Below are positions 7,618 to 63,943 of a stretch of 64,000 nucleotides of DNA, piece by piece (the stretch's first letter is position 1; each line of letters starts with the position of its first letter). Made by a program: the position numbers and the translations under genes. This DNA comes from a phage. The notes under the pieces are model-generated. The model was not told the DNA's origin. It saw nothing but the letters and a program-made list of their open reading frames with translations, and did no database searches. Location of the stretch: NCBI GenBank assembly GCA_024613925.1, contig GCA_024613925.1_4713.1; one strand, given 5' to 3'.

Positions 7618-7637
7618 AAATCACCTATTTCCGTGTT

Positions 7638-7659: not shown

Positions 7660-7668
7660 ATCGTTAAT

Positions 7669-15331: not shown

Positions 15332-15343
15332 AATAGCCTCGTG

Positions 15344-15371
15344 AAGGTGGATGGGCACACCCATCCACCTT
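15344..15371 (-). terminator. hairpin aaggtggatggg-caca-cccatccacctt
   Basis: 12-bp perfect stem, 9 nt after stop of 15380..15901. Confidence 0.5.
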
Positions 15372-15379
15372 CCTCCATG

Positions 15380-18602: not shown

Positions 18603-18627
18603 TCACGTAAGTAATATAGCCGTGAAA
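18603..18627 (-). promoter_or_regulatory. conserved promoter-like motif (minus-strand reading TTTCACGGCTATATTACTTACGTGA)
   Basis: One of four near-identical 25-mers; lies 49 nt upstream of start of 17868..18554. Confidence 0.45.
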
Positions 18628-20852: not shown

Positions 20853-20859
20853 TTAAGAA

Positions 20860-20883
20860 GCTCTGCCTGATGTCAGGCAGAGC
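20860..20883 (+). terminator. hairpin ctctgcctg / caggcagag after helicase gene
   Basis: 9-10-bp stem 8 nt after stop, followed by TTTATG. Confidence 0.5.
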
Positions 20884-20912
20884 TTTATGCTGCGTTCGCT
20901 GCAAAATCGTAT

Positions 20913-32041: not shown

Positions 32042-33322
32042 TCAGAAACGATTTACAGTACGTCCTGTCCACGCGCTCAGGATGTTGTTACGTTCCATCT
32101 CAGCACGACGACGTAAACCGTTTGGCGACTGCGGTGCTTGCGGCATCCCCCATCCAGCCGGTTGCATACCCATGCCCGGCCAAGCAGCGTTATTGAACAT
32201 CGTACCGTTACGTTCCGCAACACGGTTCATCAACGCATCAAACGTGCTATTACCTGCCGGTTGGTTACCGCCACTTTCCCACTGATTAGGTTGGACAGGT
32301 GCGGTTTTACCTAACAGGTTATCGATCACACTGCTTGTTGCAGCAGGACGCGGTTGCATACCTTCATGTGCGGCTGCTGATGGATTTGGCTTAACCGTCG
32401 GCTGTGGACGACTGTTCAGCGTTACACCCATGTTGTATTTCGCTGGCGGAATTTGACCACGATGTTGGTTAATCGGTTCAAAATCCTCGACCCAGGTAAC
32501 ATCACAATAACCGTTTTCTTTACCGTCGTACTTATCACCAAACAGTTTGATAAGATTGTTCAGCGGTTCCATCAGCTTCGCGAAGCTGTGGATAAGACAA
32601 TCGAAATACGGAGCATGAGGATCGCTTGACCCAGCATTGTACGTTTCGCTTACTTCACCCGCATGCGGGATAACGTACTCGACCAGGTTTCTCAGCATGT
32701 TAAGATCTTTCTTGGAAATCTCAACACCACACCAGTACGTTTTCTTATCTTTCGTGCTGATGTGTTCTTCTTCCATGAACGGGAAAGTAACGACCGCAAC
32801 GCGAGTCATCTTCTTACCCATGTAGGTTGCACCAGTACGACGAAGATAGATTTTGGACAGCGTATACGGCGTGTCGCGTTTCAGCCAAACAGTGACCAGT
32901 TTACCCAGGGTCGTTAATGTTTTATCGCTGGCGTCCGCAAGGATGTTGAAGAACTCTTTTTGCTTCGGTCCGAAACGTTTTGCTTCTTTAGGATTGATTG
33001 CGGTTTCAACCATCCAAATCAGCATGGAGCATAGCGTGGCGTTAAAACGAACAACCATCGCACGACGCAGGAACTGAAGTACTTCCGATTCGCCGTTCAT
33101 CACGTCTTCACTTAGCGGATGGAACAGCACGCGTTCAGCCAGCTGATTTCCGGTACGAACTTCGGAAACCGGCATCAGCAACGGCATGCTTTCCACGGTA
33201 GCGGCAACCGCAACAACTTTACCATCCCCATCCGTAAAACGATATTCTAATTCGTGGGCGTCATTCTCAAAATAGTTAACGCTCTGTAGTGCTTTGCGAT
33301 AAGCTTCGATAAGCTTCGACAT
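32042..33322 (-). CDS. hypothetical protein with C-terminal low-complexity (P/Q/G/N/M-rich) region
   Basis: 426 aa; last about 120 aa compositionally biased. Confidence 0.55.
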   Translation of the reverse strand: MSKLIEAYRKALQSVNYFENDAHELEYRFTDGDGKVVAVAATVESMPLLMPVSEVRTGNQLAERVLFHPLSEDVMNGESEVLQFLRRAMVVRFNATLCSMLIWMVETAINPKEAKRFGPKQKEFFNILADASDKTLTTLGKLVTVWLKRDTPYTLSKIYLRRTGATYMGKKMTRVAVVTFPFMEEEHISTKDKKTYWCGVEISKKDLNMLRNLVEYVIPHAGEVSETYNAGSSDPHAPYFDCLIHSFAKLMEPLNNLIKLFGDKYDGKENGYCDVTWVEDFEPINQHRGQIPPAKYNMGVTLNSRPQPTVKPNPSAAAHEGMQPRPAATSSVIDNLLGKTAPVQPNQWESGGNQPAGNSTFDALMNRVAERNGTMFNNAAWPGMGMQPAGWGMPQAPQSPNGLRRRAEMERNNILSAWTGRTVNRF

Positions 33323-33377: not shown

Positions 33378-34964
33378 TTAGAAGTTGCCTTTGGTAGTTA
33401 CCGCATCCACCAGGTTAAACAAATCAACGCTCAGCTTGTACACCTCCTGCTGGCTACGGTTGAGCAGCGGGCTGTATGCAGATGGGTTGATGTTCGGCAT
33501 GGTGTACGGAATCGGTGCAGAACCGTCAACGCTGATCTTGAACTGGCTGTCCAGGAACAGGTTAATCGCGCCGCTCACCATAACCGCATTCGGGTTGTTA
33601 CCCAACATGGAGGGTAGGATATTGGTAATCATGTCAGAACGCATTTGTTCAGCAGCACGGTTACAATCGTATCCTTTAATGAACGGTACAGCGTCGGTAA
33701 CCGCAACAGCCCACTGACCAGGCATGATACCGAGTTCTGGGTGACCGTGGTTGTCAGCAATGAAACGGAACGACTCCAACATGCGATACGTCATCGCAGC
33801 AGGCATCATTGCAGCAAGCGATGAACAGTACAGCGTTGGATAATCGATCACGTCCCAGCTCTGGCTGTCGGTCGGCATCCAACCAAACTCGGTGGTTGCT
33901 GACGTACCGCGACGAGCTTCCACATACGGGAATAACGTTAAGACATCACGGATATGTTCACCAAACATCCGTTTCATGTCAGCCCAACTCAGGCTACCGC
34001 TGAAAGCGAATCCTTCATCACGCATAATCGCACCGAATACCGGATGTGCAACCAGCGGTTCTTCACGAACAGCTTGAGCAGCTTCTACGTAAATATCCTC
34101 GTTCTCTGCGCTACCTGGATGAGACCCGCTTTCGTACGTCTGACGAATAGCTCCAACATTATCGAAGGCTTTTCTTAGATAGATGGTTGGGATGTTCGTA
34201 TCAGCACTAGCTGGTTTGATTTTCTCCGTTGCGAAACACATTGCTGCTTCCACACCACGGAAAACCGGTTCCGGCTGCGGCGGATAGGATGTACGATGAA
34301 CCACGTCAGCGTAGGCGGGATCGAACTGTTGCATCACGTTCTGCATGGCTGGGTCCATGAACTGGTTATCAAAACCACCATTGCCTACCCAACGTGCTGT
34401 TGATGCATAAGTCAGCGTATCCTGAACACGAGTACTGAACTGAACATCACGATTAACAGGGTCGTATGCACCGGTCAACAGGTTCGTTGCATCCATCGGG
34501 GTTGCACGAACGATTTGCTTACCGAACATATCCGTTGTGGTTGTTTCGGTTACCTGGATTACGTTCGTGAAGAAGAACACCAGTTCATTCGGCAGATCGA
34601 TAGCACGCGTTGTAAACGCATCGAGGCTTACAGAATGGTCGGTGTATCCAGAAATGTAATGGACACGCTTGGTTCCTGGTGCGAGGGCCAAGGATTCTTC
34701 TACCGCCATCATGAAATGGAAACGGCGTGTACCCCAACCATTTGCAATCTCCGAAACCCCCTCAGGTTCTGCAGACTGTTGTAACAAACCGGTTGCAAGC
34801 TTGTTGATTGCTGATGGTGTTGTTGCCGTACCGAACCGCGTCGTGTTAATGAAGTCTTCGATGCTACGCATGCTATCTGCGTGGAATCGTAGCGGACGAC
34901 GTTGTACGTTGTTGTACGGTGCGGTTTCAACCATCAGTATTTCACGAACATTCATCGGGATCAT
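33378..34964 (-). CDS. hypothetical protein
   Basis: 528-aa ORF; no motif recognised. Confidence 0.5.
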   Translation of the reverse strand: MIPMNVREILMVETAPYNNVQRRPLRFHADSMRSIEDFINTTRFGTATTPSAINKLATGLLQQSAEPEGVSEIANGWGTRRFHFMMAVEESLALAPGTKRVHYISGYTDHSVSLDAFTTRAIDLPNELVFFFTNVIQVTETTTTDMFGKQIVRATPMDATNLLTGAYDPVNRDVQFSTRVQDTLTYASTARWVGNGGFDNQFMDPAMQNVMQQFDPAYADVVHRTSYPPQPEPVFRGVEAAMCFATEKIKPASADTNIPTIYLRKAFDNVGAIRQTYESGSHPGSAENEDIYVEAAQAVREEPLVAHPVFGAIMRDEGFAFSGSLSWADMKRMFGEHIRDVLTLFPYVEARRGTSATTEFGWMPTDSQSWDVIDYPTLYCSSLAAMMPAAMTYRMLESFRFIADNHGHPELGIMPGQWAVAVTDAVPFIKGYDCNRAAEQMRSDMITNILPSMLGNNPNAVMVSGAINLFLDSQFKISVDGSAPIPYTMPNINPSAYSPLLNRSQQEVYKLSVDLFNLVDAVTTKGNF

Positions 34965-34965: not shown

Positions 34966-36552
34966 TTATTTTTTTCCTCTTAAATTTACTACGTGTTCAT
35001 TTAATCGAACAACTAATTGCACAAGCTGCTGACGGATATCTGCTGGACAAAGCATCAATCCCTTACGGTCAGCTGGGACTTTCTCAAGGATTTCCGGGCC
35101 TGCTGCTGAAACATCCCAGTCCCATTCACAAAACGCATCGGCCACCATGTTAATACCGACAACCGGTAAAGTTGTACGTTCATCTTCATACATGGCGTGT
35201 GGATACAATTTATTGACAGTAATGATCTCCTGTGGTTTTAATTGGTGGATAATCTGATAAACATCGTCACGTTTAACCTGGATGCCTACGGTCAGCGCTG
35301 CCAGTTGAGGAAAACCCCAATGGTCTAATAAGCAAGCTGCAATCGCTAACGCTTTTGCCTGATGCACGGCTTCAATCGGTGCCAGACTTCTCGCCGGAAG
35401 ATGGCTATCAAGCAACCATTGTGCCAGTGCTCGGCATCCACGGTTGATTGGTTTTAACTCAACGGTGTCATCATGTTTAGCGTACGTGTATCCGTCGTAA
35501 CGTTTTGCGATACGCGCATACATGTCTTCAACTTTACCGTAAGGTGCTGTTTCGTCGACGTCGTGCAACACACGTTCCATCTGGGTAAGATACGCGATAT
35601 CAAGAATGAGTACACGCGGTGAACGTTTATCTTTCACCATCAACGCATCAATCACGCCTTGACTGTCTTCATCTTGCGCGTTCCCTCGTGGGGTTTTCTC
35701 ACGAATCGGTCCACTGAAACGTCGTTCCGTACAAAGGTTATTCACATAGCTAAAGATCAGTGTTACCAGATGCGTACAACTCACCAACACCCCATCTTTA
35801 ACGACAGGCTGTACGGCTTGGTCCAAGTCGCGTACGGCGAGACGACGGACGATGGCTTGTGAACGCAACCAACCGGGCACTTTCTCCGTCGACATGTAAT
35901 CCACGGTCATCGACAGCGTGATCTTTTTATCACCCGTCTGTGCGCGGATATAATCTTCCAGTCGGTCGTAAGCGGCGATATCATGAATGCGTGTTTTATA
36001 CATCAACGACATAGCCACTTCTTCTTTACGGACTGTCCCGTACGTTTTCCCTGCGTCAATCAGAAACTCTGCCCAAATCGGCACCATCAGACGGACGTAG
36101 ATCGCTAACGCCGTTAACTCAACGTAATCATTTCGTAAATAGGTTTTCTCAGGTATGTCATCCTCACCTAATGTTGTTTTCATGTCCGGTGGTAATTTTA
36201 CCCAACCTGGGGTATTACACAACGCCAGAATCTCTTCATACACAACCGGTTTGTAAATTTCACCAACAGCGCGACTCAACTCCTCCATTTGTTGTTGTGG
36301 AGCAATGTAGTTATCCATCGCTTCACGTGCTTTAACGAACCCTTCGAAGATGTCGTCAATTCGACGTGGGTTCTTTTGTTCTATCCAGGCGAGATACTTG
36401 TTAATCTCCCGCATCTGATTACTAGCCATATCCCCATCGATCTTGATATAACCCTGACCTGAAAATTCCACAGTACGTCCATCACGGTGTTTGATGAGGT
36501 AGTGATCCAGCTTTTCTTTTCCTTGCGTCGTAATGACGGGCACTATGTGCAT
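34966..36552 (-). CDS. hypothetical protein
   Basis: Track ORF reaches 36687; start moved to MHIVPV (36552, AGAGGT 6 nt upstream). Confidence 0.5.
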   Translation of the reverse strand: MHIVPVITTQGKEKLDHYLIKHRDGRTVEFSGQGYIKIDGDMASNQMREINKYLAWIEQKNPRRIDDIFEGFVKAREAMDNYIAPQQQMEELSRAVGEIYKPVVYEEILALCNTPGWVKLPPDMKTTLGEDDIPEKTYLRNDYVELTALAIYVRLMVPIWAEFLIDAGKTYGTVRKEEVAMSLMYKTRIHDIAAYDRLEDYIRAQTGDKKITLSMTVDYMSTEKVPGWLRSQAIVRRLAVRDLDQAVQPVVKDGVLVSCTHLVTLIFSYVNNLCTERRFSGPIREKTPRGNAQDEDSQGVIDALMVKDKRSPRVLILDIAYLTQMERVLHDVDETAPYGKVEDMYARIAKRYDGYTYAKHDDTVELKPINRGCRALAQWLLDSHLPARSLAPIEAVHQAKALAIAACLLDHWGFPQLAALTVGIQVKRDDVYQIIHQLKPQEIITVNKLYPHAMYEDERTTLPVVGINMVADAFCEWDWDVSAAGPEILEKVPADRKGLMLCPADIRQQLVQLVVRLNEHVVNLRGKK

Positions 36553-36601
36553 AACAACCTCTTTTCGCGGTTCCCTGTTAAAACGTCTTCTGTGACGTCT
36601 A

Positions 36602-36626
36602 CCACAAAGGTAATATAAGCGTGAAT
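36602..36626 (-). promoter_or_regulatory. conserved promoter-like motif (variant ...GGTAATATAAGCGTGAAT on plus strand)
   Basis: Fourth copy of the 25-nt motif, 50 nt upstream of the revised start 36552. Confidence 0.4.
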
Positions 36627-36756
36627 AATTTTGGATTCCGGCTGAGTTATCGCTCAGCATGCAAGGCATCCCGCCGAAGCGAGACACCTTGCACTAACGG
36701 AAAATATTCGCGTTACCTTCTGAATCGGAGACTCAGAATGCGATGCTAAAGCATGA

Positions 36757-41330: not shown

Positions 41331-41816
41331 TTAAACCAAAGCTGCGATAACGTCGTTAACATTGCGGCCTCGCAACTCTGCCGCTAAACGAATAACTTCA
41401 TCCAGGGAACGGTTTGTACGAATCTTGGCCACTTTCCAATTTTCAGGATACTGTTCGAAGTTAAGCAACCAAGTCATTACCTTTGCTTGTTCCATACCGT
41501 TGAGTTTGATTGTCGTACGCGGATTGGCTTTGAACCACTTCTTGCTCAGCTGTGCCATACGGCGAACAGGGTAAGCGTAAGCGCGAGTCCAGTCTTTAGA
41601 CAGATTGTCGAGTAATTCACAGTAGCTGCTGTCGTAGTCTTTGTTGATACGACGTAATAACCAGTTGGCGGTCATCTGATAAAGTTTATCATCTTCGCGT
41701 AACCGCATACCTGCTACTGCTAAATAAATGATAAGACCTGCGCCCAGGATGAGAGACAGGATAAACAGAATTTGGGTTTCTTGTGCTAAAGTCATTTTAC
41801 TATCCTCGGATTTCAT
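41331..41816 (-). CDS. membrane protein (single N-terminal TM helix)
   Basis: 161 aa; ILFILSLILGAGLIIYLAVAG hydrophobic segment near N-terminus. Confidence 0.5.
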   Translation of the reverse strand: MKSEDSKMTLAQETQILFILSLILGAGLIIYLAVAGMRLREDDKLYQMTANWLLRRINKDYDSSYCELLDNLSKDWTRAYAYPVRRMAQLSKKWFKANPRTTIKLNGMEQAKVMTWLLNFEQYPENWKVAKIRTNRSLDEVIRLAAELRGRNVNDVIAALV

Positions 41817-41880: not shown

Positions 41881-41905
41881 TCACCTAAGTAATATAGCCG
41901 TGAAA
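41881..41905 (-). promoter_or_regulatory. conserved promoter-like motif (minus-strand reading TTTCACGGCTATATTACTTAGGTGA)
   Basis: 65 nt upstream of start of 41331..41816. Confidence 0.45.
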
Positions 41906-43448: not shown

Positions 43449-43694
43449 TTAGCAATGGTTGTTAGTTGCTTCTATTTCGTCAAGATACGGTTCTACGTCA
43501 TCGCCCTCCACGAATTCGTTGAACCAACAGTCAATGGTAGAAATAACCGGCGACTGGTGTTCACATTTCTTAGATACCTTAAAAGGTACGTTATTATCCA
43601 TCATACCGAGTTCGGGTCGAAAACGCCCGAAATGTTTCGCAGTCCAAATATCTGGGACGATATGGTTGTTCATCGTAGTGTTCAGCATGAGTCG
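43449..43694 (-). CDS. RNA polymerase beta-prime N-fragment, exon 3 (or separately translated 79-aa segment from ATG 43688)
   Basis: Reading from 43694: RLMLNTTMNNHIVPD resembles E. coli beta-prime ARALMMSTNNILSPAN, directly downstream of NADFDGD in the alignment. Begins CGAC after G43695. Confidence 0.5.
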   Translation of the reverse strand, partial: RLMLNTTMNNHIVPDIWTAKHFGRFRPELGMMDNNVPFKVSKKCEHQSPVISTIDCWFNEFVEGDDVEPYLDEIEATNNHC

Positions 43695-44028
43695 CTACCT
43701 CATACCCGCAGCTTTACCTGCAGCTTCCGGTGTTACCGGAATGACCAGAATACATCTTATCCATATTCCAAATGGAACGTAGGACTTCCGCGCTGGATCT
43801 CGCTTGAGACCACGTATTCGTTGAACGTTCTCCTGAACGGAGCTTCGCTGCTGATCGAACATTGTCACGTACGGTAGGCGTCCCCGAAGGGATTGTCATT
43901 GAAGCCGCGTACATCCGCTACCTTGTTTCTACCTTATCGGTTCCTCTTACGAGGCGTAGCGGCCTTAGCCCTTCCCAGCAATTCACGGAATCCAAGCTCT
44001 TCCTTTCGGAAGGCAGGGCCTATGATTA
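43695..44028 (-). ncRNA. group I intron-like core, copy 2
   Basis: Minus-strand P (AATTGCTGGGAAG, 43983..43971), Q (GATCAGCAGC, 43856..43847), R (GTTCAACGAATACG, 43826..43813), S (AAGATGTATTCTGG, 43758..43745). P4 and P7 pairings hold with compensatory changes relative to copy 1. No ORF on coding strand. No IGS identified for its 5' junction. Confidence 0.5.
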
Positions 44029-44041
44029 AGCGTCACCGTCG
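44029..44041 (-). CDS. micro-exon CGACGGTGACGCT encoding the catalytic D-G-D of beta-prime
   Basis: Only GAYGGNGAY in the 725-nt interruption; follows G44042; joins exon 1 (...AAC GCA GAT TT) in frame to give NADFDGDA; CGACGGU is complementary 7/7 to ACCGUCG at 44375..44369 (P10). Confidence 0.55.
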
Positions 44042-44419
44042 CTGTTTATCGACTATATCTTCATCCTCGTTGCGAGGAGTCTCCCGTTTTGGTCTGTGTT
44101 TAACAGAGCCTACTCTACTCGACATCGCGTCTTTCGATAGTCTGTGAGCACACATCTTAACGAACATTCGTGGATTCCTAAACAGGTGAATGTTCTTGTT
44201 GAGATGCTTCGCTGCGGATTATTCCCGTCCTACCTCTTTTACCATATCCAGTTCATTACGCTGGCCCTCATCTGTGTCACCACGATGAGTTGGTGTGTAG
44301 TCCGATTACAGAAACTTCCCGTCAATTAGAGAGTTTTAACTATGTTCCTGTTACCAGAAACCAGATCCCGACGGTATCAATAAATCAACGTAAGTTATTG
44401 AATTTATTGAAAAAAACTG
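44042..44419 (-). ncRNA. group I intron, copy 1
   Basis: Minus-strand P (AATTGACGGGAAG, 44327..44315), Q (AATCCGCAGC, 44220..44211), R (GCTCACAGACTATCG, 44149..44135), S (AAGATATAGTCG, 44061..44050) match the classical consensus elements from memory. IGS GGAUCUG (44368..44362) pairs with exon-1 end CAGAUUU with U-G at the splice site; ends with G44042. Confidence 0.7.
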
Positions 44420-45675
44420 AAATCTGCGTTATAACCTTTGAGGATCATCACGCTTAACCCGATGGTGTTATCCTGCGGATCGCGTTTAACCTTGGTGATT
44501 TCAAGACATTGGTTACTGCTTCGGTCAAGTGATGGGTTTCGAACAAAACCACACACAATCCCATCGAACGGTGTATCAGCAATAAGCTCATCGTGCAGCT
44601 CGCTCATCATCGGATGATAATTACGGACATGTTCCGCAACGAACGCACGTGCTGCTCTCGGTGAATACCCACGATGGAATAGCTTGGATTGGATATGTTC
44701 TTTATTGGTTAAAGTAAATGGTGCGTATGGGAAATGCAGATGATAATAACGATGGTTCGCTGTTATCGAACTGATTACGGTACGCGTGGTGAATGGATGT
44801 AATGTACCTAATATGTTTTTACGTGTGATACCTTTCTTCTTACCGATGAACTCATCGAAAATCGCCGCATGGTATTGCAGCAGCTTCAATTGCACTTTCG
44901 CCATCCAGTTTTCTTTCTTTCTGGCGCTCAAAGGTGTTGTTGGATGATAGATGCTATTCAACGTACCGATAGCATCGATCGCACCTTCCATTTTGCTATC
45001 CGCATAACGACCGGTTGGCGTATTCTCGATAACGAACATCATGGCCGCAGGAAAGCTGATATACTGGCTGAAGAACTTATCACGATGGATACGGATGAAT
45101 TCTCGTAGTGTGTCAACTTTCTCCGTGTTCTTCGGTCCACGTAACGTCGGTCCTTTATACAAGATCTCCATGATGCGATCGAAGTTCTGTATAAAACTAT
45201 TTACGCCACGACGTATCCCGAATACATCGAATTGCTGCTCCAGATAGTTCTTGAGTTCGATGGGTCGTTTTACATTTGGACGGTAACTGGCATCAATGAG
45301 CCACGTCATCGTTTCAAAGCTTTTGATATTCAACTCGCTTGCCAGCACGAGATGGACCAACGGGTTAATGAACGCATCGATTCCTTCAGGAACGCGCGCC
45401 CAAACCGTCGAACGAATCTCTTGTTCTGCTGGGTAGGTTACAACCGTTTTACAGTTTGGACACACCGTGCCGAGCAGCTCACCACGATTGTAGAAACCAC
45501 AACCACATTGTGGTGTGATATCCAACGTATCGCTGGAGTAAACACGGGTGATAAAACTGTTTAATTTCTTCTTCTCTTCGACGACTTTTGTATCGTAATC
45601 GTTCAACAAAATCGGCGTAAAAGGAAGTTCTGCGAGCTGTCTATCGAAACTCACGATATCGAGCATGATGGCCAT
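44420..45675 (-). CDS. RNA polymerase beta-prime N-terminal fragment, exon 1
   Basis: GKKKGITRKNILGTLHPFTTRTVI resembles E. coli [31 protein letters not shown] resembles LNRAPTLHR; unspliced ORF ends ...GYNADF then SFFQ-stop, i.e. inside NADFDGD. N-terminal C-x-C...C-x-x-C zinc motif. AGGAGA upstream of ATG 45675. Confidence 0.7.
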
Positions 45676-45717
45676 GGGGTATCTCCTACAAATGAAAAAG
45701 AACGTTAGGACGTATAA

Positions 45718-45741
45718 GGGAGGGAGGTTGCCCTCCCTCCC
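45718..45741 (-). terminator. hairpin gggagggagg-ttgc-cctccctccc
   Basis: 10-bp perfect stem after stop of 45768..47663. Confidence 0.55.
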
Positions 45742-45767
45742 GTCAGATTACATCGAACGTTCTTCCA

Positions 45768-47663
45768 TTAGAACAGGTTGAATGCCCCACCCATGTTGTT
45801 ACCGCCAACATTCGGACGATCGCTACGTGCGTAGATGTTGCCGGAGATGTTACCCAGACCACGAGCACGTGCTGCCATGTTACCACGAACAGCGGTACCT
45901 GCCAGGTGCTGGATGTTCTCAGGACGGATGGTGAAGCCAGCATCAGCCGCAGCTTCGATCAGCGCCTGCAGTGCTAACGGATCGAAGTCGTAACGCATTG
46001 CCCAGCCGGTTTGTTCCCAGCTACCAGACAGAACACGATCAATGATTTCGTGACGAGCGACAACACGCTGAGACATCGTCATATCGGTACGGTCGAAGCT
46101 GTCTTCCCAAGCTTCTACGGTATCCGGGTTAGTGATGTTCATCATGTACAGATCGTCCATATCACGAATATCGTGACGGTGACCATCCTGGTGGTTGTAG
46201 TAACCCAGCGGGATACGGTTACCGGTAGCGTAGACCAGCGGTTGGCCGTATTGATATTTCTTGCTGAAGCAACCCAGGGTAGTATCATCGAAGGCACGGT
46301 AGAGTGCTTTGTAACCTTCGGAGATTTCTTGAACTTTACCGTCAACGTTGCCCGTAAAGATCTTCTCAGCCGCCGGGATCATACGCAGCAGCCAGCTATA
46401 CTCGCCTTCTTCCGGTACGTCGATAGAAATCAGCAGAGACGGATACAGAACCTGTTGCAGGAACTTGTAAATCTGCTCGTTGGTTTGCGTAGACAGATCC
46501 AGCGGTGCAGTCACTTCAGGATCCAGCACCATCGCCAGAGCACCTGGGTTATGCGGACCAATACCACGAGCCGCGTTGCTGATTAAAGACTGTGCCCATG
46601 CCATGCCGCTGTTCAGCGTAGCGATGGTACCAATCAGACCCAGCACGAAGCTGTTCGGTGTGAACGCATCCAGCTCCAGCGGGTAAACGCTGGTCATCAC
46701 GTAACGCGGCTGGTACTGTACAGTCGGCGGTACCGGATAGCCGTTAACCAGAACAGGGCCTTGGTTGAAGGTCGGGTTCTGCGGGCTGTAGGTCAGGTCA
46801 ATGTAACCGGTGGTGGCGACCAGACGCTGTTGACTATCGTAATCGCTCATCGCTTGACGGATGCGGTTAGAGATAGTTACAGTGATGTCAGAACGCACAG
46901 GGTTACCAACAATATCGCTGTCCTGCATACCGCTGGTGTTGTACTGAACGCTGCTGATTGGCTGATCGCTTGCCATCATGCCCAGGTTGAACTGCGGCAG
47001 ACCCAGTTTATCACCGAGACGGATTTCGATCGCGGTTTGGATTGCGTTATCTGCAGCAGACAGCAGGGTGGTTGCCAGATGCGCAGATTCAGCGGTGATT
47101 TCATTGGTCACCACAGCCAGACCAGCGATACGAACAGTACCGTTAGACTTACCGCCAATAGCTGAATACATTGCCGCCATGACTTCGTTGATGAACGTAC
47201 CGTTCAGGTTATCAACCCAGGTACGCGGTACCAGAATGTTACCATGCGGACCTTGTTCTTCACGACGCGGCAGCGGAGCCAGACCAGCAACCAGCGGCAG
47301 GACGTAACCGAAGAAGTGGTTATGATCACCAACTTTTGCACCGCTCATAACAACCAGGGTCGGATACGGTACGCTGTACTGGTTCGGGTCAACCGCAACA
47401 AAGATGAAGTCGTCTTTGAACTGGGTATCTTCCAGATATTTCTCCATCAGACGACGGAGATTCAGTACCTGCTCGGAGCCGGTATTACGGCTGATACGAC
47501 GGCTCAGTGTACGGTTGATCGTACGCATCGTATGAGTTACTTTAGGACGGTCGGCAAAATCTGCAGCGGTTTCCAGCGCCTCATCAGCACGTTGTGCGGT
47601 GCGGGTTTCAGCTGCACGAATTTCTACATTATCGTTACCGTTATTACGTACGTCTAAGCCCAT
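45768..47663 (-). CDS. abundant structural/shell-type protein; candidate chimallin (phage-nucleus shell), alternatively a virion protein
   Basis: 631 aa; lies immediately upstream of the beta-prime N gene, which I recall is the chimallin/nvRNAP arrangement in phiKZ; own promoter motif and strong hairpin. No sequence-level confirmation possible here. Confidence 0.3.
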   Translation of the reverse strand: MGLDVRNNGNDNVEIRAAETRTAQRADEALETAADFADRPKVTHTMRTINRTLSRRISRNTGSEQVLNLRRLMEKYLEDTQFKDDFIFVAVDPNQYSVPYPTLVVMSGAKVGDHNHFFGYVLPLVAGLAPLPRREEQGPHGNILVPRTWVDNLNGTFINEVMAAMYSAIGGKSNGTVRIAGLAVVTNEITAESAHLATTLLSAADNAIQTAIEIRLGDKLGLPQFNLGMMASDQPISSVQYNTSGMQDSDIVGNPVRSDITVTISNRIRQAMSDYDSQQRLVATTGYIDLTYSPQNPTFNQGPVLVNGYPVPPTVQYQPRYVMTSVYPLELDAFTPNSFVLGLIGTIATLNSGMAWAQSLISNAARGIGPHNPGALAMVLDPEVTAPLDLSTQTNEQIYKFLQQVLYPSLLISIDVPEEGEYSWLLRMIPAAEKIFTGNVDGKVQEISEGYKALYRAFDDTTLGCFSKKYQYGQPLVYATGNRIPLGYYNHQDGHRHDIRDMDDLYMMNITNPDTVEAWEDSFDRTDMTMSQRVVARHEIIDRVLSGSWEQTGWAMRYDFDPLALQALIEAAADAGFTIRPENIQHLAGTAVRGNMAARARGLGNISGNIYARSDRPNVGGNNMGGAFNLF

Positions 47664-47693
47664 TTGGGATTCCTCTTTTCTTAAACTTTATTA

Positions 47694-47705
47694 AATGACG
47701 TCATT
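47694..47705. promoter_or_regulatory. perfect palindrome AATGACGTCATT
   Basis: Second copy (first at 18677..18688); about 30 nt upstream of ATG 47663 on minus strand. Confidence 0.35.
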
Positions 47706-47727
47706 GAATCAGCTTCTACTCGCTCAT

Positions 47728-47752
47728 TCACCTAGGTAATATAACCCTGAAA
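47728..47752 (-). promoter_or_regulatory. conserved promoter-like motif (minus-strand reading TTTCAGGGTTATATTACCTAGGTGA)
   Basis: 65 nt upstream of start of 45768..47663. Confidence 0.45.
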
Positions 47753-47917
47753 TTTTTTTCAATATTGGTGTAACCACATTGAACGATATAAACCCCTAGG
47801 CGAACGCTGCCGAGAAGCAACATTCTTTCTACATATAATCAGGATATGTCTGTAAACTTTTACTTCTCTTATTGAGAGTAATGTCATATCCGTTTATTAC
47901 CTTCTTACGGAGTTCGT

Positions 47918-49012
47918 ATGTTTCGTGTTTTAAATAACCTCCCGCGAACATCATCGGGTGTGCAACCCGTCCCTCAGAAAGACTATCTAATACGCGAAGT
48001 TCAAAGAAACCTACAGACAATCCAGAACCACTATCAAGGTTTTACCTTCGCGGTTCAGAGCGATCACATCCTTGCGTTGCTGCTCGCACAGCTCCCTATG
48101 AGATACGACATCTCAGTACAAACTTACTACGACATGATTCTCGATCTTACCCCAGAATTGGGTAATCGTGTCAAGTTGACAACATCAAGATACGCGGGTA
48201 AGTTATTCGACGGTGCTTTCTATCCGGGATTGCACGAAGCTATTATCGCAACCGGTGAAAGTCGTCTTATTTCACGTGACATTCTTGACAACTGGCGTAA
48301 TTGGTCGCCGGTTAGAATCGTGACGCACCCGTACGCAAATCTTCGTTACATTCCTCTTCACCGAAAGCCGGTTGAAGAAGGACGAGGTTTTGCGGTCATT
48401 ATGGTTGATGTACCTTTATTAGCGCTACAGTATCGAATGTGGTCTTTGGTCATGGGTCATAACGTCGACGGTAAATGGGTGGTTAAAGAACCGGTTACAA
48501 GCTTCCTTGCGAGTTTTCCGTTGGTTAACGCATTATACTCACACAACGATGTTGTTATACGCAATCGTTGTTTATGGGTATCTCCGGCTAAGAATCCACT
48601 CAAATCACCCATTTACGTTAACGACCTTGATAACGTATTCAGCCAAGTCGTTCTGTCCGTACAGCATCATTTATTACGCAGAAGACGAAGCTACACCGAC
48701 ATGCTTAAACAGATACCGAGTTTATACGGGGATCAGTACCAAGCAACCCGAATGGGTTACACCGTCGATCTTCGACAAACACGATGGGCAAGGGATCTGG
48801 GTTGTCTGTCATTATGGCAACAACTCGTCACATTGCAAAACGTATCTGAAAGCGTCGGGTTCAGCAGTCAAGTCGATAATGACCTGTACCGTGCTGCCGA
48901 CCGGAGTCTAAAAGAAGGTAACTGGGAATCCTCTCCGTTACCTGGTGATTTAAGACGTGAAGTTATCGCACAGGTTGCCGACCTCTTAAAAATTCTTCCT
49001 GCTGGTGCATAA
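47918..49012 (+). CDS. hypothetical protein
   Basis: 364-aa ORF; TTTATTAC about 20 nt upstream of ATG. Confidence 0.55.
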   Translation: MFRVLNNLPRTSSGVQPVPQKDYLIREVQRNLQTIQNHYQGFTFAVQSDHILALLLAQLPMRYDISVQTYYDMILDLTPELGNRVKLTTSRYAGKLFDGAFYPGLHEAIIATGESRLISRDILDNWRNWSPVRIVTHPYANLRYIPLHRKPVEEGRGFAVIMVDVPLLALQYRMWSLVMGHNVDGKWVVKEPVTSFLASFPLVNALYSHNDVVIRNRCLWVSPAKNPLKSPIYVNDLDNVFSQVVLSVQHHLLRRRRSYTDMLKQIPSLYGDQYQATRMGYTVDLRQTRWARDLGCLSLWQQLVTLQNVSESVGFSSQVDNDLYRAADRSLKEGNWESSPLPGDLRREVIAQVADLLKILPAGA

Positions 49013-49078: not shown

Positions 49079-51232
49079 TTACTCTGCGGTTTCTCGCTTC
49101 GGTAAATAACTTGCTGCGATGTCTTGGGCTAACAATGTATTGTTTTTATTCGAGATGAAAATACCGTAACTTTCCATTAACGCGTAATACGAACGAACGA
49201 GCGTAGAGATCAATCGACGAATATCCATACCTTGAATAAAGATATCAGGAAGCCCGGAGGCTTCGATCACCGGTAATGGTATCGTTAAGTTGCTTATCGT
49301 TTTCTTATCGTTACGTACAATCCAATCACGGAAACGTTGTTGTAACCCTTTATCCTCCCAGGAATCAATCCAATCGTTAAGAAGCGTTTTGTTCTTCGTC
49401 GCCAACGGCACACGAACCCCAACATAGGGTGGTTCCTGGCAATGGCCGTACGATTGAGCAAACACCTCTTCCCACATATCGTAAGACTGTTTCGTTACCG
49501 CAACATGTGGTTTCACTTTAACACGTGTTAAGAAATCAGGATCACCACGTTTCATGGACTCAACGATTTCGTTTTCTAACGAGATAATATCGTCAAGAAC
49601 CAATCGAATGCTGATCTTCTCATTACGTAACAGCTTATCCATGATACCGCACATCATGCGTTCAACACGTTTGACGATCATTTTTGGTGCTGACGCATCA
49701 CGCATAACCGGACCTTTCAATTCCAGCTTCGGTGGATTGATAGGAACCCCTTCACGCATGGTCATGTAACCGTAATAGTTTTTACCCATCGAGGTTAACG
49801 ACAGAATCAAGAACATATATTCGTTCTTCATTTCCATCACGTACATATGCTCTTTCGCTACACCGATATTACCAGAACACATCGCCATCAGATGAACCGT
49901 AATCTGCGTAACCAGATAGATAAGCGTGTTTGCTAAGCGCGTCGAAACTGGATTGATCTCCATATTTCCAAATCGCCACTGAACCCACTCCTGGCAGGTA
50001 AACACCGTCGAGTCGGTATCAGACAACACGCCCACTTCACGGATTGCCGACGGAAAAGCATAAACGCCAGCCGGTTGGTTCTCGGTACGCCAGAACGCCA
50101 TAATCAAGTCAGCATAACTTTGGATGCGTTGCAGCATTAATTTTGTTGTTGCTGCGGTAAGACGATAACCAAGCTCATTTCCTTTTTCTAGCGCTACGTA
50201 AATCGCTTCCCCATTCAAGAACTCCGTGCATTGTGCTGTAATCCAAGCGACCGTGTTGTTATCCATGGAAGCAATAATGGCTTTAGCCTCTTCCATCGTT
50301 TCAACAGGTTCGGATGCCAGCTCACACAACGAGTCAAGAAAATCTCGAACAAATTCAGGATTAAGCTCACGTAACGAGTACAGGTTATTGCTGTACATGT
50401 AGCAGGCGCGTTCCAACGGCGTTAAACCGGTAATTAACTCCCGGATAGTCAGTTCTTTCTCTGGGTCGAAAGTATACCGATGTAAGCATTTCGATACGTT
50501 AGCCCAAACCTCTTCCGGCGTAGGGTAATGCAGTTTGTATTTTACCATTACCTGCTCAATGGCTTTACGATCGCTGTTACGGACGATGCTTACGATGTTT
50601 TCAATTGCGATATCACAATCGTAATAATGGAAATTGCCCGCAAGGAAGCGTTCGTTGTTCGCATTGGCTGAACCTGAAGCACAGCGACATGTTGTCGTTA
50701 GACTCGGATGCGCAATCGGATTATAAAAAGGGTTGAACTTGGACGCCTGGGTTCCTGACAAACTGTTGTTGTCTAACTTGGTGTTGGTTTGTCGTTTATC
50801 GTGTAGCTCCGCTTCGTCTTTACGTCCGTGTGCTTGCGCTATCGACATTTGTTTCTTTTGTTTCTTACGCAACTTACCGTTTTCAACCGCAAAGTCGCTT
50901 AGCACACTGGAACGTGTTTCACGTGGATAACAGTTAGCCCACACCGGCGTGATAATTAAATTATTTTCTTTAATATCGTTGAAGTATTGGCTGAACTTGA
51001 TGACTTCTTTTTCTCGATTTCCTTCGGTACGCTGCGTTAGTACAAGGCAGTCGGGATCAACCATCCCGTATTTTCCACCAGGACGAACCGTTTCAAGAAC
51101 AAACTGCAACGCTTCCTGCTGAGATATCCCACGCATGCGCATTAAGAACAGGGTATAATCCTGTACCGCTTCTTTGGTCATATCCAACGTACGACCATAT
51201 CCGTTTTCATCGTAAAAGAACGGATTTTCCAT
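49079..51232 (-). CDS. polymerase-like protein (family B DNA polymerase-type motifs B and C), no exonuclease domain
   Basis: 717 aa; TKLMLQRIQSY (cf. phi29 KLMLNSLYG) followed by GVLSDTDS (cf. YGDTDS). GGAGGA upstream of ATG. Function is tentative. Confidence 0.4.
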   Translation of the reverse strand: MENPFFYDENGYGRTLDMTKEAVQDYTLFLMRMRGISQQEALQFVLETVRPGGKYGMVDPDCLVLTQRTEGNREKEVIKFSQYFNDIKENNLIITPVWANCYPRETRSSVLSDFAVENGKLRKKQKKQMSIAQAHGRKDEAELHDKRQTNTKLDNNSLSGTQASKFNPFYNPIAHPSLTTTCRCASGSANANNERFLAGNFHYYDCDIAIENIVSIVRNSDRKAIEQVMVKYKLHYPTPEEVWANVSKCLHRYTFDPEKELTIRELITGLTPLERACYMYSNNLYSLRELNPEFVRDFLDSLCELASEPVETMEEAKAIIASMDNNTVAWITAQCTEFLNGEAIYVALEKGNELGYRLTAATTKLMLQRIQSYADLIMAFWRTENQPAGVYAFPSAIREVGVLSDTDSTVFTCQEWVQWRFGNMEINPVSTRLANTLIYLVTQITVHLMAMCSGNIGVAKEHMYVMEMKNEYMFLILSLTSMGKNYYGYMTMREGVPINPPKLELKGPVMRDASAPKMIVKRVERMMCGIMDKLLRNEKISIRLVLDDIISLENEIVESMKRGDPDFLTRVKVKPHVAVTKQSYDMWEEVFAQSYGHCQEPPYVGVRVPLATKNKTLLNDWIDSWEDKGLQQRFRDWIVRNDKKTISNLTIPLPVIEASGLPDIFIQGMDIRRLISTLVRSYYALMESYGIFISNKNNTLLAQDIAASYLPKRETAE

Positions 51233-55621: not shown

Positions 55622-56602
55622 TTAGAAAAGCAAGAAACCGCTATTCTTCGCTTCTGCTACAGTTTCGTCACCGACTTTCGGTGCTTGTTGACGTGCGTTA
55701 CGGTGTTCGATGTAACGTTTCGCTTCGTCCGCGATTTGTTTGATAATACCCCCTAAACGATCAGTACTTAAAACAAACGACGTCGCTTCACGAATTGGGC
55801 TGCTTTCAGGCACAAAACCATCGCAGCTGTAAATAGCGCTAACGCCCATGACTTTTGTCGCGTCTTTCGGATAAAGCGTACAGAAAGCAATCGGGCTATC
55901 GTTCTCTTTCGTCCAATCGTATCCCATGAACGTATTCAGTTCGGTGATCGTTGGTTCCAAACCGGTAACACGTGGATGGTTTAAGAAGTTTTCCAGGTCA
56001 GCGCTGTCAAGACGGCGGTTCTCGCCAGAAAACAGAACACAAAGCTGGCTGATAACAACCTGCACGTCCAGGTTGACATCCTGCTCCGATTTCCCATTTT
56101 CGCCATTCATGTGATAGCTAACAATCACTGGACGTTTCAACCCTTCTGCAGCTGCCATCAGTCCTTTGAAGGTGCGATCGGCGTTGATCGTTTGACGCTC
56201 ATCATCGAACGAGGCAACGATGCAACACACCACACGTTCACCGCGTTCCAGCAGGTTAGCAACCAACGCAGGACCGGCAACAGAACCTGAACCACCGCTC
56301 AAACTAAAGACCACGATATTAAATTTACCTGGCGTATGCTTATTGAGAATACCTGGGATTTGTGAACAGATCAGTTCAGCGTTCTCGTCACGCTTCTTAC
56401 CAGAACCGTCTAACTCACGACCGGCTGCATCTTTAAAGATGTAAATATGATCGTCGCCCAGTGTGCTATCGCGTAGGTTAGCGCGGCTGGTATCGACATA
56501 CGTCATGCTGTGTAATCCTTTCGCGACTTCGCCTTCAAATGCCGAGCCGATTTCGCCACCACAACCACCGACAGCCCAAATATGTACTTGGTTCTCTTGC
56601 AT
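55622..56602 (-). CDS. phuZ: tubulin/FtsZ-like GTPase (PhuZ-like)
   Basis: 326 aa; N-terminal IWAVGGCGGEIG (FtsZ GGGxG-like) and SLSGGSGSVAGP (tubulin signature-like). Confidence 0.65.
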   Translation of the reverse strand: MQENQVHIWAVGGCGGEIGSAFEGEVAKGLHSMTYVDTSRANLRDSTLGDDHIYIFKDAAGRELDGSGKKRDENAELICSQIPGILNKHTPGKFNIVVFSLSGGSGSVAGPALVANLLERGERVVCCIVASFDDERQTINADRTFKGLMAAAEGLKRPVIVSYHMNGENGKSEQDVNLDVQVVISQLCVLFSGENRRLDSADLENFLNHPRVTGLEPTITELNTFMGYDWTKENDSPIAFCTLYPKDATKVMGVSAIYSCDGFVPESSPIREATSFVLSTDRLGGIIKQIADEAKRYIEHRNARQQAPKVGDETVAEAKNSGFLLF

Positions 56603-57509: not shown

Positions 57510-58036
57510 TTAACAACAGCTTCCTCCCTCGGTGTTTTCGAGGGAGGTATTTGCCGTTTGAACACTTTCAGCACGTTCGCAAAATCAGCAGCAATAATAC
57601 AGGCCGAGGCTGATAGCTTATTGCTGAAAATGAGATCGTCCGGTAAACAATCGAACTGAATACCATATTGCGTCTTTGTCTCATCAACGATCAGTGACGG
57701 TGTCGATCCTGTCTTCGCGATGTCGGTGATATACAAACGTAAAAATAATTCACCGTCTTCGCTATCCATAAAACGATAGGCGTTACCAGAAAACGCAACA
57801 CTTGGCGTAACGATAAATTGAACACGATCGTCGGTCGGATGGATATTTAACCAACGTTCGATATCACTGCTACTCACATTCCGCATATTTACTACGGTAA
57901 AAGCAAATAGCGTATCGTGATGTTTGGAATAATGCAGCACATACGCCGCACCTTTCTTTTTGTGAATCCCTTCAATGTATTCTATTGTCGTATAGCCGGA
58001 TTTATATAGCTTTACTTGCGGTTTATCACTCATCAT
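57500..58036 (-). CDS. hypothetical protein
   Basis: Track ORF 57500..58117; start moved to Met28 (ATGA overlap with upstream stop). Confidence 0.5.
   Translation of the reverse strand: MMSDKPQVKLYKSGYTTIEYIEGIHKKKGAAYVLHYSKHHDTLFAFTVVNMRNVSSSDIERWLNIHPTDDRVQFIVTPSVAFSGNAYRFMDSEDGELFLRLYITDIAKTGSTPSLIVDETKTQYGIQFDCLPDDLIFSNKLSASACIIAADFANVLKVFKRQIPPSKTPREEAVVNQK
57523..57547 (+). terminator. hairpin cctccctcg-gtgtttt-cgagggagg after 56667..57509
   Basis: 9-bp stem 14 nt after stop; overlaps 3' end of convergent minus gene. Confidence 0.5.
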
Positions 58037-60873: not shown

Positions 60874-60897
60874 CCGTCTCGAGATAACTCGAGACGG
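60874..60897 (-). terminator. hairpin ccgtctcgag-ataa-ctcgagacgg followed by U-rich tract on minus strand
   Basis: 10-bp perfect stem, 4-nt loop, about 30 nt after stop of 60927..61280. Confidence 0.6.
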
Positions 60898-63914: not shown

Positions 63915-63943
63915 CCTCCTCTGGGAATGGAACCCAGAGGAGG
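63915..63943. terminator. hairpin cctcctctggg-aatggaa-cccagaggagg
   Basis: 11-bp perfect stem about 150 nt after stop of 62518..63762. Confidence 0.45.

What the first reader, a model, noticed from the sequence alone, without database searches (positions are those of the whole stretch)
45768..47663. 631-aa abundant-looking protein beside beta-prime N may be the nuclear-shell protein (chimallin)
The size, the position next to the beta-prime N gene, its own promoter motif and a 10-bp terminator hairpin fit what I recall of the chimallin locus in phiKZ-type phages. I cannot verify the sequence itself; a capsid or sheath protein is the alternative.
Basis: inference. Interest (0 to 1): 0.5.

Follow-up and report, generated by a model that had tools for sequence, protein, structure and literature searches.

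The report
Goslar-type phage nuclear shell protein, chimallin

Summary
The ORF at 45768..47663 (minus strand, 631 aa) is real. It is chimallin/ChmA, the protein that builds the jumbo-phage "nucleus". It matches the cryo-EM-solved Goslar chimallin (PDB 7SQT) end to end, with 615/631 residues identical. It passes Pfam PF25677 (98 bits, cut-off 27) and PHROG "nuclear shell protein", and has no capsid or sheath hit. The window is a Goslar relative, about 97.6% nucleotide identity.

The order DNA polymerase / opposite-strand gene / chmA / nvRNAP beta' N is also found in Goslar and RAY, and PhiPA3 shares the chmA / nvRNAP beta' N adjacency.

- A 24-nt motif (TTCAsG..TATATTAC..GTGr) lies 66 nt upstream. 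It occurs 4 times in the window and has the geometry of phiKZ/AR9 virion-RNAP early promoters.
- A perfect 10-bp GC-rich hairpin follows the stop codon, but it has no adjacent U-tract.
- The gene is the most codon-biased of 31 large ORFs.
- dN/dS against Goslar is 0.11.

Verdict: interpretation supported, already known, low interest.

The more interesting by-product is next door. The nvRNAP beta' N gene is split inside its catalytic NADFDGD motif by two group I introns separated by a 13-nt mini-exon. Related metagenomic genomes show presence/absence polymorphism at three intron sites 13 nt apart.

The parts
47728..47751 (-). Early-promoter-like motif TTCAGGGTTATATTACCTAGGTGA. The predicted transcription start is the G at 47729, giving a 66-nt 5' UTR.
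   Evidence: One of 4 copies of a 24-nt motif, all on the minus strand, each with its core about 70-90 nt upstream of a start codon. G lies exactly 6 nt after TATATTAC in all four copies. That is the geometry reported for AR9 and for phiKZ and phiR1-37 virion-RNAP promoters (PMC5312081). The motif is 100% conserved in Goslar. Promoter activity is inferred, not shown.
47671..47676 (-). Shine-Dalgarno AGAGGA, 8 nt before the ATG
   Evidence: Read directly from the sequence.
45768..47663 (-). [quoted passage not shown]
   Evidence: ORF. PDB 7SQT: E=0, 1400 bits, full length. Pfam PF25677: 98.3 bits against a cut-off of 27. PHROG 4795 'nuclear shell protein': 2e-54. There are 16 aa differences from Goslar and dN/dS is 0.11.
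45718..45741 (-). Perfect 10-bp G+C-rich hairpin with a GCAA loop, 26 nt after the stop codon. It is a candidate terminator, attenuator or 3' mRNA stabiliser between chmA and the RNAP gene.
   Evidence: It is identical in Goslar. It belongs to a class of 9 distinct perfect hairpins with stems of 9 bp or more. The window gives 17 nested hits against 1.6 in shuffles, and several checked by eye lie just past gene ends. There is no adjacent U-tract, and its function is inferred.
44420..45675 (-). Neighbouring gene: exon 1 of the nvRNAP beta' N-terminal subunit (phiKZ gp55 homologue). It ends inside the NADF|DGD motif.
   Evidence: PHROG 2987. PDB 7OGP_A. The exon junction is fixed by the intron-less allele in L003.
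44042..44419 (-). Group I intron 1 (378 nt), without the HNH homing-endonuclease ORF that Goslar carries at its 3' end
   Evidence: Rfam RF00028: 44.6 bits (gathering score 50), E = 8e-10, full model. Goslar has a 1065-bp HNH insertion between window positions 44046 and 44043. The intron is absent from L003.
44029..44041 (-). 13-nt mini-exon CGACGGTGACGCT, which completes F and encodes DGDA
   Evidence: It is contiguous with its flanking exons in L003.
43674..44028 (-). Probable group I intron 2 (355 nt)
   Evidence: It is precisely absent in L002, L003 and L004. U precedes it and it ends in G. Rfam gives only a weak partial hit: 16.7 bits, E = 0.19. Its ends are homologous to 'intron 0' of L002/L003, which scores 31-32 bits. 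It differs from Goslar at only 2 of 347 positions.
43449..43673 (-). Exon 3 of the nvRNAP beta' N gene. Goslar annotates it as a separate hypothetical protein, gp185.
   Evidence: The ORF alone hits positions 424-475 of PHROG 2987. The spliced 497-aa product aligns to phiKZ gp55 over residues 21-476 at 255 bits. The uninterrupted RAY homologue is 495 aa.

Best explanation
The gene encodes ChmA (chimallin), the major shell protein of the phage nucleus of a Goslar-type Chimalliviridae phage of E. coli.

Likely course of events:
1. Soon after injection the virion-packaged RNA polymerase transcribes chmA from its own early-type promoter (inferred).
2. A strong ribosome-binding site and host-adapted codons give very high expression (inferred from sequence; shown by proteomics for the PhiPA3 homologue).
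3. ChmA monomers form tetramers through their N-terminal segment. Tetramers link through two C-terminal segments (CTS1, CTS2) into a flexible square lattice. This was shown for Goslar and 201phi2-1 chimallin.
4. [quoted passage not shown] Pores of about 1.4 nm (reported for 201phi2-1) let small molecules through.
5. The hairpin after the stop codon probably ends or attenuates transcription, or stabilises the mRNA 3' end, before the much less strongly codon-biased nvRNAP beta' N gene (inferred).
For: - Identity of 615/631 residues over the full length with the cryo-EM-solved Goslar chimallin. The accession link gp189 = YP_009820873.1 = RefSeq gp246 'nuclear shell protein' holds.
- The Pfam chimallin family matches above its cut-off, as does the PHROG nuclear shell protein family. 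tblastn hits fall in 111 phage records, and every one of the 40 listed is a phage with a genome above 220 kb.
- Synteny: Goslar and RAY share the order DNA polymerase / opposite-strand gene / chmA / nvRNAP beta' N, and PhiPA3 shares the chmA-beta' N adjacency. PhuZ tubulin lies 8 kb away and further multisubunit RNAP genes are in the window.
- Purifying selection: dN/dS is 0.11, with 45 synonymous against 16 non-synonymous codon changes.
- No substitution falls in the NTS, CTS1 or CTS2 assembly segments when 201phi2-1 boundaries are used as an approximate guide.
- The gene has the highest codon bias in the window.
- The early-promoter-like motif is present and the flanking intergenic DNA is almost invariant: 1 difference in 346 nt against 66 in the 1896-nt CDS.
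- Published mechanism and essentiality: Laughlin 2022 (PMC9365700); review PMC12908238; GFP-ChmA (gp246) labels the Goslar nucleus; abstract of PMC10541120.
Against: Nothing contradicts the assignment. There are three caveats. Nothing was measured for this particular allele. The single-sequence AlphaFold model failed (pLDDT 35.6), so the fold rests on sequence identity to a solved structure rather than on an independent prediction. The hairpin lacks the U-tract of a canonical intrinsic terminator, and promoter use by the virion RNAP is inferred from motif geometry only.
Confidence: 0.97

Rival explanations
1. It is a virion structural protein (HK97-fold major capsid protein or contractile tail sheath).
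For: Only its size and apparent high expression support it. ChmA peptides are detected in purified Goslar virion preparations.
Against: There is no capsid or sheath family hit in Pfam, PHROGs or PDB sequences at E<=1. The Goslar virion cryo-EM model assigns the capsid to gp41 and the sheath to gp218. It attributes ChmA in the mass spectrometry data to co-purified nucleus fragments. The orthologue's solved fold is a novel alpha/beta N-domain plus a GNAT-like C-domain.
Confidence: 0.01
2. It is a chimallin homologue that has drifted. It could be a non-functional or functionally altered allele, for example one incompatible with the Goslar lattice because of the substitution cluster at residues 436-488.
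For: Eight of the 16 substitutions fall in residues 436-488, where dN/dS is 0.49. The clustering has a scan-statistic p of about 1e-3.
Against: The reading frame is intact and overall dN/dS is 0.11. The terminal assembly segments are unchanged. Exactly this protein sequence is found in 55 blocks of the public collection, including contigs of 234-239 kb that look like complete phage genomes. It is therefore a common, circulating allele. The variable stretch aligns to a gapped, poorly conserved region in PhiPA3 chimallin, as expected for a tolerant loop.
Confidence: 0.02

Closest known systems
Goslar chimallin ChmA (gp189 in GenBank MK327938 numbering, gp246 in RefSeq NC_048170; YP_009820873.1; PDB 7SQT/7SQU/7SQV)
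   Same: Same length (631 aa), same start and stop, and 97.5% aa and 96.5% nt identity. The flanking regulatory DNA is nearly identical, including the promoter motif and the hairpin. The gene order is the same.
   Different: There are 16 substitutions: G38D, Q39R, R81Q, A167S, A177V, A326V, T338S, Y436F, K439N, E441D, E443K, R445Q, V461T, L474Q, H488Y, V621G. Half of them lie in residues 436-488. The neighbouring intron lacks the HNH endonuclease ORF present in Goslar.
201phi2-1 gp105, PhiPA3 gp53 (PhuN) and phiKZ gp54 chimallins (PDB 7SQQ, 8FNE and 8IGG; I did not check which phage 8IGG is from)
   Same: Same family (Pfam PF25677), with collinear alignment over about residues 62-599. The position next to the nvRNAP beta' N gene is the same. 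The Goslar orthologue superposes on 201phi2-1 at 1.8 A r.m.s.d..
   Different: Identity is only about 19-24%. According to Laughlin et al., CTS2 is shorter in the Goslar type and makes different contacts.
E. coli AtaT-type GNAT toxin with AtaR antitoxin (structural relative of the chimallin C-domain, per Laughlin 2022)
   Same: The GNAT-like fold of the C-terminal domain. CTS1 binds where the antitoxin binds (from the literature, not tested here).
   Different: There are no acetyltransferase active-site residues and no sequence-level hit here. It is a lattice-forming structural protein, not an enzyme.
PhiPA3 gp210 intron/HNH element in the vRNAP gene, and the intron splitting PhiPA3 nvRNAP gp65-66 (for the neighbouring gene)
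   Same: A group I intron sits in a catalytic, highly conserved site of a phage multisubunit RNAP gene. In some genomes it carries an HNH homing endonuclease.
   Different: Here the target is the nvRNAP beta' N subunit at NADFDGD. There are three alternative insertion sites 13 nt apart. The window's copy of intron 1 has no endonuclease ORF.

Membership tests
Chimallin / ChmA (Pfam PF25677, PHROG 4795) | Significant match to the family profile above the curated cut-off, over most of the length | tested here: met
   PF25677: 98.3 bits against a cut-off of 27, residues 19-596 of 631. PHROG 4795: 2e-54, residues 20-629.
Chimallin / ChmA (Pfam PF25677, PHROG 4795) | Collinear homology with experimentally solved chimallins | tested here: met
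   7SQT (Goslar): 1-631 aligned to 4-634, E = 0, 615/631 identical. 8FNE (PhiPA3): 2e-22. 7SQQ and 8IGG (further chains named 'Chimallin'): 1.6e-11.
Chimallin / ChmA (Pfam PF25677, PHROG 4795) | Extended N-terminal (NTS) and C-terminal (CTS1, CTS2) segments that mediate lattice assembly are present and intact | tested here: met
   The alignment to the Goslar chain is full length and ungapped. The substitutions nearest the termini are at 38/39 (N-tail) and 621 (the CTS1-CTS2 linker by 201phi2-1 numbering: NTS 48-61, CTS1 590-611, CTS2 622-631). I did not find the exact Goslar boundaries, so the mapping is approximate.
Chimallin / ChmA (Pfam PF25677, PHROG 4795) | Two-domain core fold (novel alpha/beta N-domain plus GNAT-like C-domain) | tested here: inconclusive
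   Single-sequence AlphaFold2 gave a mean pLDDT of 35.6 and pTM of 0.27, which is unusable, so no fold search was run. The fold follows from 97.5% identity to the 2.3 A protomer structure.
Chimallin / ChmA (Pfam PF25677, PHROG 4795) | Encoded in a Chimalliviridae genome within the conserved block next to nvRNAP beta' N, with PhuZ and two multisubunit RNAP sets | tested here: met
   Window genes: divergent family B DNA polymerase, nvRNAP beta' N, further RNAP beta-type subunits and PhuZ. The DNA polymerase / opposite-strand gene / chmA / beta' N order is shared with Goslar and RAY, and the chmA-beta' N adjacency with PhiPA3.
Chimallin / ChmA (Pfam PF25677, PHROG 4795) | Early and very abundant expression during infection | not testable with these tools
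   Indirect support only: the early-promoter-like motif, a strong SD and the top codon bias of 31 ORFs. Abundance is shown by proteomics for PhiPA3 ChmA and reported for 201phi2-1.
Chimallin / ChmA (Pfam PF25677, PHROG 4795) | Self-assembles into a square lattice enclosing phage DNA | not testable with these tools
   Shown for the 97.5%-identical Goslar protein by cryo-EM and cryo-ET.
HK97-fold major capsid protein / contractile tail sheath | Sequence or profile similarity to capsid or sheath families | tested here: not met
   No such hit in Pfam, PHROGs, NCBIfam or PDB sequences. The Goslar MCP is gp41 and the sheath is gp218.
Group I intron (Rfam RF00028), for the neighbouring RNAP gene | Match to the catalytic-core covariance model | tested here: inconclusive
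   Intron 1: 44.6 bits, full model, E = 8e-10, but below the gathering score of 50. Its homologues in L002, L004 and L005 score 44-48 bits. Intron 2: only 16.7 bits, partial.
Group I intron (Rfam RF00028), for the neighbouring RNAP gene | Precise excision restores a conserved reading frame, with U before the 5' splice site and G as the last intron base | tested here: met
   Natural intron-less alleles (L003 for sites 1 and 2; L002 and L004 for site 2) read NADFDGDAMNNHIVPD without interruption. Both window introns follow a U and end in G. The spliced product scores better against phiKZ gp55 (255 bits) than the first splice model did (245 bits). Self-splicing itself was not tested.

The most novel reading that the evidence does not exclude
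The 16 differences from Goslar ChmA are not scattered. Eight lie in residues 436-488 and five in 436-445, where local dN/dS is 0.49 against 0.11 overall. The most novel reading still open is that this is a surface patch of the shell under diversifying selection. Candidate pressures are a host factor that senses or attacks the shell, or lineage-specific partner proteins for import, docking or ChmB/ChmC binding. Such a patch would keep co-infecting Goslar-type phages from sharing a nucleus. On this reading the intron/HNH polymorphism in the adjacent nvRNAP gene would belong to the same intra-lineage competition.
Probability: 0.1. Interest if true: 0.45.

Novelty: already known. Interest (0 to 1): 0.12.

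Why it matters
It matters little for discovery. The gene is an allele of one of the best-characterised jumbo-phage proteins, and the phage is a same-species-level relative of Goslar.

Its value is practical in three ways:
- It anchors the window as Chimalliviridae, Goslar type.
- It shows that a blind reader can recognise the chimallin locus from size, neighbours and regulatory signals alone.
- It provides a naturally occurring ChmA variant, common in metagenomes, whose 16 substitutions mark positions tolerated by the lattice.

The adjacent intron mosaic in the nvRNAP catalytic motif is the part that could repay further work. It offers natural intron-plus and intron-minus alleles and endonuclease-plus and endonuclease-minus introns for studying homing and phage-phage competition in an E. 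coli system.

Tried and rejected
1. Single-sequence AlphaFold2 of the 631-aa protein gave pLDDT 35.6 and pTM 0.27. The model is unusable, so no fold search was run. I ran no further search on building an alignment, because 97.5% identity to a solved chain already fixes the fold.

2. The sigma-70 promoter and intrinsic-terminator scan around the gene found nothing above shuffle expectation and missed the hairpin.

3. The bare 8-mer TATATTAC is not enriched (4 observed, 2.6 expected). With one mismatch it is depleted if anything. Only the 24-nt extended motif is meaningful, and it was derived from the same four sites, so its shuffle statistic is partly circular.

4. Rfam at gathering threshold found nothing in the whole window. 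The introns appear only in E-value mode.

5. My first splice model for intron 2 put the 3' splice site after UAG at 43695, giving ...DGDARLMLNTT.... It was wrong by 21 nt. Intron-less natural alleles moved it to 43674.

6. NCBIfam has no model for this protein.

7. No match in complete E. coli genomes, so the gene does not sit in any of the complete E. coli genome assemblies searched.

8. A literature search for the string TATATTAC returned nothing relevant among the 10 papers listed. I found no published Goslar promoter consensus.

9. The repeat finder for short inverted repeats listed mostly palindromes and was not helpful. It was replaced by a custom hairpin count.
Full report
**Observation.** The ORF listing gives an ATG-initiated ORF of 631 codons at 45768..47663 on the minus strand, exactly the coordinates of the finding. 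An AGAGGA Shine-Dalgarno lies 8 nt before the ATG. The gene is flanked downstream by ORF 44404..45675(-). Upstream are an opposite-strand ORF at 47918..49012(+) and then a 717-aa ORF at 49079..51232(-).

**Identity.**
- Pfam gives a single family, PF25677 "Phikzvirus chimallin family": 98.3 bits against a cut-off of 27, residues 19-596.
- PHROGs gives a single family, phrog_4795 "nuclear shell protein", at 2e-54.
- Against all PDB chain sequences the best hit is 7SQT_A "Chimallin": E = 0, 1400 bits, query 1-631 aligned to chain 4-634. Next come PhiPA3 PhuN (8FNE, 2e-22) and two further chimallin chains (8IGG and 7SQQ, 1.6e-11). Nothing else appears at E<=1.
- megablast against 50,697 phage records finds only Escherichia phage vB_EcoM_Goslar, at 96.5% over the gene and 97.6% over 20 kb. 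The RefSeq record calls the matching CDS "nuclear shell protein", YP_009820873.1.
- Laughlin et al. 2022 name that accession as Goslar gp189, the protein they purified and solved: 2.3 A protomer, 2.6 A tetramer (PMC9365700).
- A direct comparison gives 66 nucleotide and 16 amino-acid differences, which is 615/631 identical.
- tblastn finds homologues in 111 phage records, and all 40 listed are phages with genomes above 220 kb. Every hit other than Goslar is below 30% identity.

The window therefore comes from a second member of the otherwise isolated Goslar lineage.

**Alternative excluded.** No capsid or sheath family is hit anywhere. The Goslar virion cryo-EM and mass spectrometry study assigns the major capsid protein to gp41, the tail tube to gp217 and the sheath to gp218. 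It detects chimallin (gp246) only as co-purifying nucleus fragments (bioRxiv 10.64898/2026.04.21.720040).

**Context.**
- The downstream ORF is the N-terminal beta' subunit of the non-virion RNA polymerase: PHROG 2987 at 2e-117 and phiKZ gp55, PDB 7OGP_A.
- The 717-aa ORF is the divergent family B DNA polymerase: PF20286 at 2e-204.
- The window also holds PhuZ tubulin (55622..56602), two further RNAP beta-type subunit genes, helicases, thymidylate synthase and an SbcD-like nuclease.
- The order DNA polymerase / opposite-strand gene / chmA / RNAP beta' N is identical in Goslar and Erwinia phage RAY. PhiPA3 has 053 (ChmA, similar to phiKZ gp054 and 201phi2-1 gp105) directly followed by 054 (similar to phiKZ gp055).

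**Regulatory signals.**
- *Promoter.* The four exact TATATTAC sites of the window are all on the minus strand. Their cores lie about 70-90 nt upstream of a start codon, and they share conserved flanks, TTCAsGnyTATATTACyTwnGTGr. The degenerate 24-mer matches 4 times against 0.02 expected. That pattern was derived from these sites, and the 8-mer alone is not enriched. In all four copies a G lies exactly 6 nt after the core. Lavysh et al. report the AR9 early consensus as AAATATATATTAT-(6N)-G+1. [quoted passage not shown] I therefore read the motif at 47728..47751 as a virion-RNAP early promoter with its start at 47729. This is an inference.
- *Hairpin.* GGGAGGGAGG-GCAA-CCTCCCTCCC at 45718..45741 is a perfect 10-bp stem. 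The surrounding 81 nt fold at -40.7 kcal/mol, z = -7. It has no adjacent U-run and is not annotated as a terminator in Goslar. However, perfect stems of 9 bp or more are about 10-fold over-represented in the window, and several that I checked by eye lie just past gene ends.
- *Conservation of the flanks.* Both intergenic flanks of chmA are nearly invariant between the window and Goslar: 1 difference in 346 nt, against 66 in the 1896-nt CDS. This is consistent with functional non-coding elements.

**Expression and selection.** chmA is the most codon-biased of 31 large ORFs. Its Nc is 34.7 and the next ORF has 41.8. Its fraction of E. coli optimal codons is 0.74 and the next ORF has 0.61; the optimal-codon list comes from my own knowledge. 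[quoted passage not shown] Nei-Gojobori dN/dS against Goslar is 0.11. The substitutions cluster: 8 of 16 lie in residues 436-488 and 5 in 436-445, with a scan-statistic p of about 1e-3 and 3e-4 respectively. Local dN/dS there is 0.49. That stretch aligns to a gapped, poorly conserved region of PhiPA3 chimallin, so a tolerant surface loop is the simplest reading. With 201phi2-1 boundaries as an approximate guide (NTS 48-61, CTS1 590-611, CTS2 622-631), no substitution touches the assembly segments.

**Mechanism.** By orthology, the protein forms homotetramers through the NTS and links tetramers through CTS1 and CTS2 into a flexible square lattice. The lattice encloses replicating phage DNA and excludes host nucleases and ribosomes, and deleting these segments abolishes self-assembly in vitro. 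GFP-ChmA (gp246) labels the Goslar nucleus. ChmA is reported to be essential by the dRfxCas13d-based CRISPRi-ART knock-down (abstract of PMC10541120). All of this is shown for the Goslar or 201phi2-1 proteins and inferred for this allele.

**Distribution.** The exact 631-aa sequence is on record in 55 blocks of the public assembly collection. These include NCBI GCA_024672315.1 (a 236-kb contig) and ENA metagenome scaffolds of 234-239 kb. It is a common circulating allele, not a singleton.

**Structure prediction.** Single-sequence AlphaFold2 failed (pLDDT 35.6). I did not run a fold search on it, and I ran no further search on building an alignment, because the identity to a solved chain already answers the question.

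**By-product: introns in the neighbouring gene.**
- The annotated beta' N ORF ends ...GYNADFSFFQ*, inside the universal catalytic NADFDGD motif.
- Rfam in E-value mode finds a full-length group I intron at 44042..44367: 44.6 bits against a gathering score of 50, E = 8e-10. It also finds a weak partial hit at 43786..43990.
- Goslar carries a 1065-bp HNH endonuclease insertion at the 3' end of the first intron, which the window lacks.
- The four loci fetched through the ChmA look-up show a mosaic:
  - Site 0 (GGG T|AT) is occupied in L002, L003 and L005.
  - Site 1 (GAT TT|C) is occupied in the window, Goslar, L002, L004 and L005. Goslar carries the HNH ORF there, and L005 has a downstream gene with a faint HNH_3 Pfam hit.
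  - Site 2 (GCT|ATG) is occupied in the window and Goslar only. L005 ends before site 2 and is uninformative.
- L003 reads AAT GCT GAT TTC GAC GGG GAC GCG ATG AAC AAC CAT, which is NADFDGDAMNNH, without interruption. This fixes the exon junctions.
- The window gene is therefore exon 1 45675..44420, intron 1 44419..44042, a 13-nt mini-exon 44041..44029, intron 2 44028..43674, and exon 3 43673..43449. The product is 497 aa.
- That product aligns to phiKZ gp55 across the junctions at 255 bits, 1e-74. It is close in length to the uninterrupted 495-aa RAY homologue.
- Goslar's "hypothetical protein gp185" is exon 3.
- Intron 2 and intron 0 share homologous ends.
- Introns in Chimalliviridae RNAP genes are known: PhiPA3 gp210 in the vRNAP gene (PMC11620839) and PhiPA3 nvRNAP gp65-66. 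This is therefore a new instance of a known kind. I found no description of the Goslar-type three-site mosaic in the papers searched.

**Verdict.** The finding is already known and of low interest in itself.

Noticed in passing
window 43449..45675 (-): The nvRNAP beta' N gene next to chmA is split inside its catalytic NADFDGD motif by two group I introns (44042..44419 and 43674..44028). They are separated by a 13-nt mini-exon (44029..44041). The spliced product is 497 aa and matches phiKZ gp55 across the junctions. The ORF that Goslar annotates as hypothetical protein gp185 is exon 3.
   Followed up: yes
window 44043..44046 vs L001 11618..12682; L002-L005 positions 6200..7100: Near-identical Goslar-type genomes show intron presence/absence polymorphism. 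There are three insertion sites 13 nt apart around NADFDGD, occupied in different combinations. Intron 1 occurs with an HNH endonuclease ORF (Goslar; probably L005, where only a faint HNH_3 hit marks the downstream gene) or without one (window, L002, L004). L003 carries the uninterrupted NADFDGDAMNNH sequence. Synonymous differences cluster around the sites, as expected for homing and co-conversion.
   Followed up: partly
window 18603..18626, 36602..36625, 41881..41904 (all -): Three further copies of the 24-nt early-promoter-like motif lie upstream of genes of unknown function (17868..18554, phrog_3921; the phrog_3209 gene; 41331..41816). The copy at 36602 lies inside the mechanical GTG-ORF 34966..36687. 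The real start of that gene is therefore probably the ATG near 36540, preceded by AAGAGG.
   Followed up: partly
window 32042..33322 and 33378..34964 (-): After chmA, these two adjacent genes of unknown function (phrog_3520, phrog_3141) are the next most codon-biased in the window: Nc about 42, Fop about 0.6, and raised GC. They may be other highly expressed proteins. They lie next to RNAP subunit genes, where ChmC-like nucleus-associated proteins sit in PhiPA3.
   Followed up: no
window 6590..6612, 7058..7083, 7637..7660, 15343..15372, 20858..20885, 57523..57547, 60874..60897, 63915..63943: Eight more perfect hairpins with stems of 9-13 bp. With nested variants the window gives 17 hits against about 1.6 in shuffles. 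Several that I checked by eye lie just past gene ends. They are probably the phage's transcript 3'-end signals and mostly lack a canonical U-tract.
   Followed up: partly
window 47664..47917 and 45676..45767: The two intergenic regions flanking chmA are almost invariant between the window and Goslar (1 difference in 346 nt), while neighbouring coding DNA differs by 2-3.5%. The 254-nt upstream region separates divergently transcribed genes and probably holds more than the one promoter motif.
   Followed up: partly
window 45768..47663, codons 321-430: Synonymous divergence from Goslar is about three times higher in codons 321-430 (dS 0.27) than in the rest of the gene (0.05-0.15). This suggests a recombination patch from a more distant relative rather than uniform divergence.
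   Followed up: no
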